From Eledone cirrhosa (lineage: Eukaryota): 64,000 bases of DNA. The position numbers were made by a program, and so were the translations under genes. Position 1 is the first letter of the stretch. Each line of letters begins with the position of its first letter. Below are positions 6,925 to 61,472 of the stretch, piece by piece. The stretch is taken from contig OZ024759.1 in the NCBI GenBank assembly GCA_964016885.1, positions 15,748,001 through 15,812,000 on the forward strand. The letters are read 5' to 3'. Under the pieces are notes generated by a model, which made no database searches, had not been told where the DNA came from, and saw nothing but the letters and a program-made list of their open reading frames with translations.

Positions 6925-7116
6925 GGAACGAGTAGGACCCCGACGGCTGAGCTCAAGTCGTTACGACGGCTAATTCTGGACTGAATTAGCCGTCGAAACG
7001 GCTTGAGCTCAGCCGTCGGGGTTCTACTCGTTCCTATTACCCACTCTACTACCCTAAGTATTGAGTACTTTGGTGTGTTATGGTCCACCTGGTTCCTTAC
7101 CACATTTCTTTCGTTA
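6920..7116 (+). mobile_element. Fold-back PLE-like element (family F2) with hammerhead 3' half
   Basis: 57-bp inverted arms 6920-6976 and 6983-7039, 77-nt tail, GAAA-CGGCT-tgagctc-AGCCG-TC at 6995-7017, (TA)n flanks. Confidence 0.8.
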
Positions 7117-7157
7117 TATATATATACGTGTATATATATATATATATATATATATAC

Positions 7158-7188
<31 letters not shown>

Positions 7189-7191
<3 letters not shown>

Positions 7192-7322
7192 CGAAGGAAA
7201 TGTGGTAAGGAACCAGGTGGACCATAACGCACCAAAGTACTCGATACTTGAGGTAGTAGAGTGGGTAATAGGAACCAGTAAGTTCAGCTCAGTTGAGCTC
7301 AGCTGTCGGGGTCTTACTGGTT

Positions 7323-50364: not shown

Positions 50365-50413
50365 TATATATATATATAAGAAGAAATTAAAAGATGGTTA
50401 AGAAAGTTCCATG

Positions 50414-50484
50414 TATTTTATTATGCGCATTTCAAAAACAAATATCATCCTGGGACGATATTTGCGTTCTCATCAGATAAAATA
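50414..50484 (-). ncRNA. Complete hammerhead motif (family F5)
   Basis: TATTTTAT-CTGATGA-long stem II-GAAA-TGCGCA-TA-ATAAAATA. Confidence 0.85.
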
Positions 50485-50783
50485 GGGAGACATGATATGA
50501 AGCTTAAAAAAAACACTTGTAAGCAAGGTAGTGTCTAATCAACATATGATAAATAAATTTAAAAGGATATAGGAGATTGGAAAAAAGGAAAGGAAGAGGA
50601 GAAAAGTAAGGAAGAGGAAGAAAGGAAAAAAGAAAAAAAGAAGGAAAGGATAACGGAGGAAGAGTATAAGAAGGGGGAAGGAGAGAGAAAGAGGAGAGAA
50701 AGAGAGAGAGATAAACATTTAAACTGAGAAACGCTGTCTCCACAGAGAAATAACTGAAAAAACGGTTGTAAATTTGTAAATAA

Positions 50784-51653
50784 ACTAACAGCTGAGCCCG
50801 GTTGCACCCGGGGCCACTTTTTGTTAAGTTAATAATTTGAAAAATATTGAAAGTTTATTATAAAGAAGCAGTTTCAGGAAAAAAAATAGAAATATGCACT
50901 TGGGGTTGGACGGCGTACAATGAGAAATGGAGTGACGTGAAAAGCGTTGTTTATTAACAGCGAAATAGCAATGTCGATGATATGCAATTTGAAAAATACT
51001 ACTTACTGTTAGTGGTGGTTAACATGTATTAGAATTAAAATAAAAACACGCGTCCCCTCTTCGCAATTTAAGGGTTTTATTTCTTTTGATGGAAAACAGT
51101 GACCGTACTGCAGAATCGATTTCATAAAACGGTACTGTGAAAATGAAACGTACTGTAGAAGGCAACAGTTTATTAATCTGCATTTTCAAACTTGCATATC
51201 ATCGACATTGCTATTTCGCTGTTAATAAACAACGCTTTCCACGTCGCTCCACTTCTCATTGTACGCCGTCCAGCCCCTAGTGCATATTTCTATTTTTTTT
51301 CCTGAAACTGCTTCTTTATAATAAACTTTCAATAATATTTTTCAAATTATTGGTACTGTATGTTAACAGCGAAAGAACGTTGATGAGTTTAAAAATTTGT
51401 ATAAATTGTAAATAACTCATCCAAGTATTAGAACAGGGGGAAATAACTCACCGAACGCGATAGTAAAAAGACTGTTTGGGGACCCTAGGGCCCACATTTT
51501 TCAAGTTTGAGATTTGAAACCTCGTCTATTTGCTTCCTTGGCACTTTTTACATAAGTGTGTAAATTTTCATGTCCGTCCAACCACGTCTACTACCATTTA
51601 ACCGTGCACATCTGAATTTCAACCACCACCCATTTCACAAATATATATTAGAT
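50784..51653 (+). mobile_element. Helentron-associated (HINE)-like element with a 170-bp internal inverted repeat
   Basis: 5' ACTAAC plus CCCGG-ttgcac-CCGGG hairpin; 3' ATATATATTAGAT; arms at about 50831-50999 and 51180-51351. Confidence 0.6.
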
Positions 51654-51892
51654 TAAATAAATTAAGAAAATTGAAAGTTAATGCTTATGATTACAGATAT
51701 AGAAATTAAGTATACTATTTAGGGTTTAAATAGTGAAGGATTTATTAAGATGTGGAAACATTTATTAAAATGTATTATTAAGATAAAATAGAGTAAAATA
51801 AGAAGGTCAATGAAAATAAAATTAAATGATTTATAAGCTTTATTAAATGATTTATTGCTTTATTGCGCTACAATAAAACTCACCTCCTACAT

Positions 51893-51945
<53 letters not shown>

Positions 51946-56034: not shown

Positions 56035-56063
56035 AAATTATTTATAAAACTGTTTATACATTG

Positions 56064-56129
56064 TATTTTGTCTGATGAAGGCATACCATATTTTAATTTG
56101 GTATACCTTGAAATATGTATAATGAAATA
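56064..56129 (+). ncRNA. Complete hammerhead motif (family F8)
   Basis: TATTTTGT-CTGATGA-AGGCATACCA..TGGTATACCTT-GAAA-TATGTA-TA-ATGAAATA. Confidence 0.8.
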
Positions 56130-56258
56130 AATATGGTTTTATAAATATAGTTTCCATTTATTAATATCGTATATCTACTCCAAAAACTTGTCGAGTGCTT
56201 TATATCAGTTATAAAATATTTACTTGTTGTATCCCAGCAATTTTAAATAGAACTTTTG

Positions 56259-59711: not shown

Positions 59712-60030
59712 AAAGAGTATGGTTTAGTAGTTGGAGCGTTGGGTTTGCAATCGTGAGCTTGTCAGTTCGATGCCCAGACCGAGTGATGGGTTGTGTCCTT
59801 GAGCAAGACACTTTATTTCACGTTGCTCCAGTTTCCTCAGCTGTAGAAATGTGTTGCAACGTCACTGGTGCCAAGCTGCATCGGCCATTGCCTTTCCCTT
59901 GGACAAAATATGTGGGGTGGAGACTGGCATGCATGAGTGACTGCACACAAACAATCTTATCCGGACTCCAGGCTTGGAAAGAACTTTCTCCGTACAAAAC
60001 CCATGGTCATTCGTGACCGAAGTAGGTCTT
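59712..60030 (+). mobile_element. SINE family S2, near full-length
   Basis: tRNA-like head, TGTGTCCTTGAGCAAGACACT core, 3' region ending cgtgaccgaag..ggtctt. Confidence 0.8.
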
Positions 60031-60033
60031 TGC

Positions 60034-60089
<56 letters not shown>

Positions 60090-60209
60090 CAGGTGAGTTT
60101 TATTGTAGCACAATAAAGCAATGCAAATATCGGATAAGTAGCACTCTACAGTTTGTAAGACCGGAGTATAAATAATATAAGATCAAAAGATGGTTAAAAG
60201 AGTTCCAAG

Positions 60210-60280
60210 TATTTTATTATGCGCATTTCAAAAACAAATATCATCATGGGATGATATCTGCGTTCTCATCAGATAAAATA
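60210..60280 (-). ncRNA. Complete hammerhead motif (F5)
   Basis: 8-bp stem I, CTGATGA, ~15-bp stem II, GAAA, palindromic ATGCGCAT stem III, AUA triplet. Confidence 0.88.
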
Positions 60281-60408
60281 GGGAGACATGATATGAAGCT
60301 TAAAAAACAGTTGTGAGCAGTGAAGTTTTAAATCTTCAGTGAAGTTTTAAATCTTGATTTAAAAGTTCACTGCTCACAAGTGTTTTTTAAGCTTCATACC
60401 AGTCTCCC

Positions 60409-60479
60409 TATTTTATCTGATGAGAACGCAGATAACATCCCATGATGATATTTGTTTTTGAAATGCGCATAATAAAATA
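60409..60479 (+). ncRNA. Complete hammerhead motif (F5)
   Basis: TATTTTAT-CTGATGA-GAACGCAGATAACATC ccat GATGATATTTGTTTTT-GAAA-TGCGCA-TA-ATAAAATA. Confidence 0.88.
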
Positions 60480-60541
60480 CTTGGAACTCTTTTAACCATC
60501 TTTTGATCTTATATTAAATATATATATATATATATGTATAT

Positions 60542-60744
60542 ATATGAAAACATTCAGGACCCCGACGGCGGAGCTCGGGCCGTTTCGACAGCTAGATCCG
60601 AACAGTTCGGATATAGCTGCCGAAAAGGCCGGAGTTCAGCCGTCGGGTTCCTGAATCTTTTCATATTACCCACTCTACCACCCCAAGTATCGAGTACTCT
60701 GGTGGGTTATGGAGCACCTGATATATTACCACACCCTCTCTAAC
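60542..60744 (+). mobile_element. Fold-back element, F2 subfamily b
   Basis: Arms 60542-60603 and 60605-60666; tail homologous to the F2 tail. Confidence 0.75.
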
Positions 60745-60764
60745 ATATATATATGTATATATGT

Positions 60765-61164
60765 AGAAGTTATATTTAATTTGTTGGTATACAACAAGCA
60801 AATATTTTTATAACTGATATAAAGCACTCAACAAATTTTTGGATTAAAAATACAATATATTAATAAATGGAAACTATATTTATAAAACCATATTTATTTC
60901 ATTATACATATTTCAAGGACACCAAAGCAAATTATGGTGCGCTTTCATCAAATAAATTATAATATAGATCAGTTTTATAATCCGGGAGCTTCCAACCAAC
61001 ATGGTCGCATTCTTTAAGGGTATGTCAATATTTGTTTATAAAACTGATCTATATTATATTTTATCTGATGAAAGCGCACCATAATTTGCTTTGGTGTCCT
61101 TGAAATATGTATAATGAAATAAATTATGGTTTTATAAATAAAGTTTCCATTTGTTAATATATTG

Positions 61165-61166
<2 letters not shown>
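60765..61166 (-). mobile_element. Fold-back PLE-like element (F8) with a hammerhead in each arm
   Basis: Arms 60851-60980 and 61036-61166; tail 60765-60850 matches 56170-56260; left-arm core is mutated (TTGATGA). Confidence 0.8.
61057..61121 (+). ncRNA. Complete hammerhead motif (F8)
   Basis: TATTTTAT-CTGATGA-AAGCGCACCA..TGGTGTCCTT-GAAA-TATGTA-TA-ATGAAATA. Confidence 0.82.
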
Positions 61167-61203
<37 letters not shown>

Positions 61204-61208
<5 letters not shown>

Positions 61209-61392
61209 AACGAGTAGGACCCCGACGGCTGAGCTCAAGCCGTTTCGACGGCTAATTCTCAGAATTAGCCGTCGAAACGGCTTGAGCTCAGCCGTCGGGG
61301 TCCTACTCGTTCCTATTACCCACTCTACTACCCTAAGTATTGAGTACTTTGGTGTGTTATGGTCCACCTGGTTCCCTACCACATTTCCTTCG

Positions 61393-61395
<3 letters not shown>
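61204..61395 (+). mobile_element. Fold-back element (F2) with a perfect 56-bp palindrome
   Basis: 61204-61259 is the exact reverse complement of 61261-61316; 79-nt tail; (TA)n flanks. Confidence 0.85.

Positions 61396-61472
<77 letters not shown>

What the first reader, a model, noticed from the sequence alone, without database searches (positions are those of the whole stretch)
60210..60479. Paired intact hammerheads on opposite strands
Each arm holds a full motif with an 8-bp stem I, a long stem II and the perfect palindrome AUGCGCAU in stem III. Transcription in either direction yields one ribozyme together with its own antisense copy, which could silence it or generate dsRNA. A third intact copy is at 50414-50484.
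Basis: partly seen in the sequence, partly recalled or inferred. Interest (0 to 1): 0.75.

Follow-up and report, generated by a model that had tools for sequence, protein, structure and literature searches.

The report
Two-armed Penelope retrotransposon stub with hammerheads
The two back-to-back ribozyme motifs are real, but they are one of over 2,000 such mirror-image stubs of a very abundant Penelope-type jumping gene in this genome, likely written when both ends of a DNA cut copied the start of the element's RNA, so this is an insertion by-product rather than a built-in ribozyme switch.

Summary
Observation confirmed. Type-I hammerheads lie at 60409-60479 (+) and 60210-60280 (-), with a third at 50414-50484 (-). 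They belong to a 430-bp insertion in (TA)n whose arms are the pseudo-LTR of an autonomous Penelope-like element (809-aa ORF, telomerase-like RT plus C-terminal GIY-YIG). The genome holds 17,660 exact matches to the motif and 2,083 similarly spaced opposite-strand pairs. Arms have two fixed 3' ends; 28 of 31 pairs combine one of each. In 17 of those 28 neither arm contains the other, which a fold-back copy cannot produce. Arms of one insertion share rare variants (32 sites; 1.2 in permuted pairs). About 46% of arms reaching a base 69 nt upstream of the core stop there, likely the RNA start; there is no comparable pile-up at the ribozyme cut site. Best reading: both ends of a double-strand cut prime reverse transcription on uncut RNA and run off its 5' end. 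Read-through RNA is predicted to fold into a long hairpin with the ribozyme off, as a side effect. Opposite-strand hammerhead pairs and inverted pLTRs are in print, and this scan reported the same architecture before on other DNA. Cleavage and expression were not tested.

The parts
60030..60088 (.). (TA)n target repeat, left flank
   Evidence: sequence; copies elsewhere also end in (TA)n
60089..60334 (-). Left arm: pLTR positions about q9 to q255 (q1 = C of CATATG, 70 nt upstream of CUGAUGA), with the tail
   Evidence: blastn to natural copies: q9-252 at 60334-60091, 97-98%
60089..60166 (-). About 80-nt tail present on this arm only (the longer of two fixed 3' ends)
60210..60280 (-). Type-I hammerhead motif, left arm; predicted cut at 60218
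60335..60353 (.). Junction filler: TT plus a 17-nt direct repeat of the preceding arm end; unique to this insertion
   Evidence: sequence; 1 match genome-wide at <=1 mismatch
60354..60520 (+). Right arm: pLTR q7 to about q170-176, no tail (the shorter fixed 3' end, ambiguous with the TA target)
60409..60479 (+). Type-I hammerhead motif, right arm; predicted cut after 60471
60521..60545 (.). (TA)n target repeat, right flank
   Evidence: sequence
50371..51900 (-). Separate insertion of an older subfamily: long tail-less arm (hammerhead 50414-50484, running into the 3' UTR) and a short inverted tailed arm at 51854-51886

Best explanation
This is a short, two-armed insertion of the hammerhead-bearing pseudo-LTR of an autonomous Penelope-like retrotransposon, likely made when both ends of a cut (TA)n repeat primed reverse transcription on the element's uncut RNA. 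Shown: the arms are the pLTR of an ORF-bearing element; arms have two fixed 3' ends (about q170-176 and q253-258) and a dominant 5' end (q2); paired arms point outward and share rare variants. Inferred: the RT-endonuclease cuts both strands; one end starts at each internal site; both cDNAs run off the RNA's 5' end (q2, likely the transcription start) and are joined head to head by end-joining through the self-complementary ATAT/CATATG or a templated filler. The hammerhead is carried along because it lies between the RNA start and the RT start sites. Read-through RNA would be a long hairpin with the ribozyme off; that is a by-product.
For: Same hammerhead lies upstream and downstream of an ORF in 3.9-kb tandem units. 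The 809-aa ORF models at pLDDT 84.6; top fold matches are telomerase RTs (Z 15.9, rmsd 4.7, 306 aligned) and residues 685-790 match I-TevI GIY-YIG (Z 9.7, rmsd 2.3, 89 aligned). 17,660 motif copies and 2,083 opposite-strand pairs; 15 of 15 close neighbours among the first 100 listed point outward. Of 59 loci from single-arm queries, all end at one of two 3' positions, 31 have a head-to-head partner, 28 of 31 pair long with short, and in 17 of 28 the tail-less arm reaches further 5'. Rare variants shared by both arms: 32 sites in 46 fold-backs versus mean 1.2, maximum 3, in 61 permutations. 5,738 arms stop at q2 versus 6,800 that continue; one ORF-bearing copy starts exactly at q2 (L094). Estimated 5' ends at the cut site (about 39) are similar to neighbours (about 30 and 21). 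Purified PAc cleaves and extends both strands from two internal sites and uses unprocessed RNA (PMC11167929).
Against: No RNA-level data: q2 as transcription start is inferred from DNA ends only. The extra-G (cap) signature is weak: G precedes q2 in 17 of 67 stops, but several are ambiguous or explained by the partner arm. 28 of 59 loci show no partner in the 3-kb stretch held, some because the arm runs off it. The window's own arms share no rare variant (0 shared, 3 single), so common template is shown for the family, not for this copy. Shared variants could also come from gene conversion or from two RNAs of one donor. Tail (about 80 nt) is longer than the 30-40 bp in print and lies upstream of the first ATG (q312). 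Pfam found no family in the ORF.
Confidence: 0.8

Rival explanations
1. Same element, but the inverted arm is a fold-back (self-primed) copy of the first arm, on nascent cDNA or on an antisense RNA, as proposed by Arkhipova et al. 2013.
For: Arms share rare variants; many centres are perfect palindromes (7 of 16 shown); PMC3846280 reads junction palindromes as self-priming.
Against: A copy must be contained in its template; in 17 of 28 long/short pairs each arm has sequence the other lacks, and some do not overlap at all (L105, L112, L115). The palindromic centre follows from two cDNAs ending in ATAT.
Confidence: 0.08
2. The whole palindrome is itself a mobile unit (MITE-like or retrozyme-like) that moves intact, or is the RNA source of further stubs.
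For: All 40 scored hits of the whole-palindrome query are full fold-backs of 327-355 bp; over 2,000 pairs have similar spacing.
Against: That query selects for full fold-backs. Centres vary from copy to copy and this one is unique; single-arm queries give a continuum of arm lengths up to full elements; no tandem short repeats as in retrozymes were seen; left and right arms carry mirrored private variants, not fixed left/right differences.
Confidence: 0.06
3. The pair is a host-used regulatory device: antisense-gated ribozyme or a source of functional dsRNA, siRNA or editing substrate.
For: The fold-back is predicted to form a 165-bp helix with stem I abolished; the core is intact in both arms.
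Against: Intact cores are expected of young copies (99 of 128 arms intact; median variation in the core 0.016, in flanks 0.008-0.023). Thousands of equivalent insertions exist; nothing marks this one. No gene context was established.
Confidence: 0.06

Closest known systems
Inverted-pLTR insertion units of endonuclease-bearing Penelope-like elements (PMC8557442 passages; PMC3846280 passages; PMC2377424 passages)
   Same: pLTR with hammerhead, adjacent inverted 5'-truncated copy, tail at one end only, partial tandems, AT-rich or microsatellite targets.
   Different: Here the unit is reduced to two pLTR stubs with no ORF; the tail is about 80 nt rather than 30-40; one 5' end dominates.
Dual min-HHRs on opposite strands 100-700 bp apart in Schistosoma mansoni PLE remnants (Cervera and De la Pena 2014, PMC4209133, parts 1-2 of 4 read)
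   Same: Opposite-strand type-I hammerhead pairs at short distance, tied to truncated PLEs; palindromic stem III; long stem II.
   Different: 8-bp stem I, a 6-nt palindromic stem III/loop rather than an empty helix III, and G.U or A-U instead of G10.1-C11.1.
PAc (Poseidon, Anolis) in vitro mechanism (Frangieh et al. 2024, PMC11167929, parts 1-2 of 4 read)
   Same: Both strands cleaved and extended, two internal RT starts defining the tail, AT-rich target, hammerhead cleavage not needed.
   Different: PAc's starts lie within the ORF and are close together; here they lie in the 5' UTR about 80 nt apart, and the protein has Neptune-type motifs.
Animal non-LTR retrozymes (PMC7229834 passages; bioRxiv 10.64898/2026.07.22.740005 part 1 of 5)
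   Same: Small non-coding repeat with a type-I hammerhead, PLE-related.
   Different: Retrozymes are head-to-tail tandem repeats of a 150-450-nt monomer; this is a head-to-head pair that is colinear with an autonomous element's pLTR.

Membership tests
Type-I hammerhead ribozyme | Core CUGANGA, GAAA, UH with stems I-III in type-I order | tested here: met
   stems I and II form in 80-nt fragments
Type-I hammerhead ribozyme | G10.1-C11.1 pair closing stem II (highly conserved per PMC4209133) | tested here: not met
   G.U in the window; across 128 arms 10.1 is A in 92 and G in 36, 11.1 is U in 124. A variant, possibly slower.
Type-I hammerhead ribozyme | Match to an Rfam hammerhead model | tested here: not met
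   no hammerhead family at E<=10 in 60150-61200
Type-I hammerhead ribozyme | Self-cleavage as monomer or dimer | not testable with these tools
   palindrome duplex predicted at -10.5 kcal/mol; no assay
EN+ Penelope-like element | Single ORF with telomerase-like RT | tested here: met
   809-aa ORF in L087; YRDD at 366; top fold matches TERT
EN+ Penelope-like element | GIY-YIG endonuclease C-terminal to RT | tested here: met
   model 685-790 matches I-TevI, Z 9.7, rmsd 2.3; 2 of 43 homologues hit PF01541 weakly
EN+ Penelope-like element | pLTR with hammerhead, partial tandems, inverted copy, one-sided tail | tested here: met
EN+ Penelope-like element | Target-site duplication | tested here: inconclusive
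   both flanks are (TA)n, so a duplication cannot be read
Neptune clade of PLEs | Cys-rich linker motif between RT and EN | tested here: met
   CNCRIKNKCPL..HC at 668; clade feature per PMC8557442 passage; the DKT motif as a Neptune mark is recalled
Neptune clade of PLEs | RT phylogeny groups with Neptune | not tested
   no named reference sequences were available; no tree built
Non-LTR retrozyme | Head-to-tail tandem short monomers, each with a hammerhead | tested here: not met
   tandems seen only as 3.9-kb ORF units; close pairs are all head to head, 15 of 15
Non-LTR retrozyme | Circular RNA | not testable with these tools
   no RNA run was listed
MITE / fold-back DNA transposon | Fixed unit with identical termini moving intact | tested here: not met
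   ends are asymmetric and centres vary

The most novel reading that the evidence does not exclude
These stubs are 'strong-stop' products that record the in vivo mechanism of Penelope-like elements: one RT-endonuclease complex primes both ends of a double-strand cut, at two fixed sites on the same capped, ribozyme-uncut RNA, and both cDNAs run off the transcription start. Thousands of copies would then map the start site to the base, overturn the self-priming explanation of head-to-head repeats, and seed the genome with perfect dsRNA hairpins.
Probability: 0.55. Interest if true: 0.5.

Novelty: new member of a known kind. Interest (0 to 1): 0.3.

Why it matters
As a locus it is ordinary: one of thousands of stubs. 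As a population the stubs bear on an open question, how Penelope-like elements build head-to-head repeats and one-sided tails. The non-nested arms argue against self-priming (PMC3846280) and match the two-strand, two-start chemistry shown in vitro (PMC11167929). The element is young, with many open 809-aa copies, so the fixed RNA start, the two RT starts and the apparent non-use of cleaved RNA are all directly testable. Such stubs would also be mis-annotated as MITEs or miRNA hairpins, and may supply dsRNA when read through.

Tried and rejected
Expression: no RNA holder listed; laying four runs of unrecorded type gave only fragmented contigs and high summed depth, uninformative. Rfam: only low-complexity or hairpin miRNA matches below gathering scores. 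Pfam and PDB sequence searches did not recognise the ORF. The protein atlas did not hold the sequence. Cut-site footprint: one arm starting exactly at the predicted cut (L122) prompted a test; estimated about 39 ends at q126 (14 of 30 examined were true ends, of 83 hits) versus about 30 at q123 (16 of 30, of 57) and 21 at q131 (21 of 28): no clear pile-up. GG before q2 looked like a cap signature, but 6 of the 8 GG junctions fetched are explained by the partner arm's own sequence. Simple snap-back copying, my first model, was dropped after the nesting tally. Stem I in a right-arm-only transcript with flanks (60346-60560) had predicted probability only 0.026, so even the single arm may misfold in context. 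Lunse et al. 2017 on dimeric PLE hammerheads was not held; I saw only its title in a reference list. Searches for a printed account of two-ended priming or a fixed 5' end in PLE fold-backs found none beyond the papers cited; subscription papers and supplements were not seen and may contain it.

Full report
Observation. A descriptor scan of both strands finds type-I hammerhead motifs at 60409-60479 (+), 60210-60280 (-) and 50414-50484 (-), each with an 8-bp stem I, CUGAUGA, a long stem II, GAAA, the palindrome AUGCGCAU and an AUA triplet; none appeared in 30 shuffled windows. Eighty-nt fragments fold stems I and II. The two arms form a near-perfect 168-column inverted repeat. Stem II closes with G.U rather than G-C, and Rfam lists no hammerhead family here.

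Extent. Numbering from the C of CATATG as q1 (core at q71, predicted cut after q125), the left arm covers q9 to about q255 and the right arm q7 to about q170-176. Both ends lie in (TA)n. The centre is a 19-nt filler that repeats the left arm's end and occurs once in the genome.

What the arms are. Following single-arm hits upstream led to an ORF about 1 kb 5' of the same hammerhead. A protein search gave 38,859 candidates; among the 124 scored, many have an 821-codon open frame. In 20 fetched regions the hammerhead lies both upstream and downstream of the ORF, in 3.9-kb tandems and in inverted arrangements. The 809-aa product has no Pfam match, but its model (pLDDT 84.6) matches telomerase RTs best and the I-TevI GIY-YIG domain at residues 685-790. 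A Cys-rich linker suggests the Neptune clade (no tree built). The only eukaryote named among the homologues is Argonauta hians; with a 3.0-Gb genome this suggests a cephalopod host, which is an inference.

Abundance. There are 17,660 exact matches to a 26-nt part of the motif and 2,083 opposite-strand pairs spaced like this one, both subfamilies counted. All 15 close neighbours among the first 100 listed matches point outward.

How the pair arises. In 59 loci found with single-arm queries, every central arm ends 3' at one of two positions (41 short, 18 long). Thirty-one have a head-to-head partner; 28 of these pair a long with a short arm; in 17 of the 28 the tail-less arm extends further 5', in 7 the tailed arm does, and 4 are equal. 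A fold-back copy must be contained in its template, so the 17 non-nested pairs exclude self-priming, the explanation offered in PMC3846280 (passages). Arms of one insertion share rare variants at 32 sites in 46 fold-backs, against 1.2 in permuted pairs, with 110 variants in one arm only. This fits one donor or one RNA molecule, though conversion is not excluded and the window's own copy shares none. Purified PAc cleaves and extends both target strands from two internal sites that define the tail (PMC11167929). I infer two-ended priming.

Why the stubs have this size. 5,738 arms begin at q2 without the natural upstream base, against 6,800 that continue upstream; 22 of 59 sampled arms begin at q-1 to q6; and one ORF-bearing copy starts at q2 directly after (TA)n (L094). 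I read q2 as the transcription start, so that priming at the RNA's 5' copy of the start sites gives two short run-off cDNAs ending in self-complementary ATAT. Penelope's promoter and start site lie in its pLTR (PMC2377424 passages). The cap-G signature is weak. No RNA data test this.

Role of the ribozyme. Ends at the predicted cut site (about 39) are not clearly above neighbouring positions (about 30 and 21) and are over 100-fold fewer than at q2, though the patterns differ in stringency. The copied RNA was therefore mostly uncut, as in PAc. The core is intact in 99 of 128 arms, with no clear sign of per-copy selection.

Known or new. Opposite-strand hammerhead pairs 100-700 bp apart are described for Schistosoma PLE remnants (PMC4209133). 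The inverted truncated copy with a one-sided tail is the typical PLE arrangement (PMC8557442). Earlier notes of this scan reach the two-ended reading in this genome and in others; I tested it independently on this family. Verdict: real, a new member of a known kind, interest 0.3, with value mainly as population evidence on PLE mechanism.

Noticed in passing
window 60843-61170 and 56038-56167: A second hammerhead family (stem III UAUGUA, A10.1-U11.1) forms another outward-pointing inverted pair; its minus copy has U in place of C3. A solo relative lies at 56064-56129.
   Followed up: partly
window 60546-60665, 7020-7285, 61213-61420: Other short fold-back repeats between (TA)n runs, without a hammerhead by my descriptor; possibly stubs of other elements inserted the same way.
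   Followed up: no
window 50770-51790: The third copy's long arm is interrupted by about 1 kb of other sequence containing its own inverted repeat of about 170 bp.
   Followed up: no
L087-L090, L097-L099 (for example G000:C2:134082200-134092100): A very young subfamily of the autonomous element, with near-identical 809-aa ORFs in 3.9-kb tandems and inverted pairs; likely recently active.
   Followed up: partly
L064:6399-9057 (G000:C4:174425400-174435000, minus strand): An unrelated open 886-codon frame with RT and GIY-YIG-like motifs, apparently another Penelope-like family.
   Followed up: no
L092:7439-7587 and L094:1147: A third, small GC-rich hammerhead family (CUGAAGA core), also as an opposite-strand pair.
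   Followed up: no
L110, L118, L127, L128 (3' UTR, q-630 to q-447): Several copies share a break or internal duplication at the same 3' UTR positions, perhaps a subfamily or deleted derivative.
   Followed up: no
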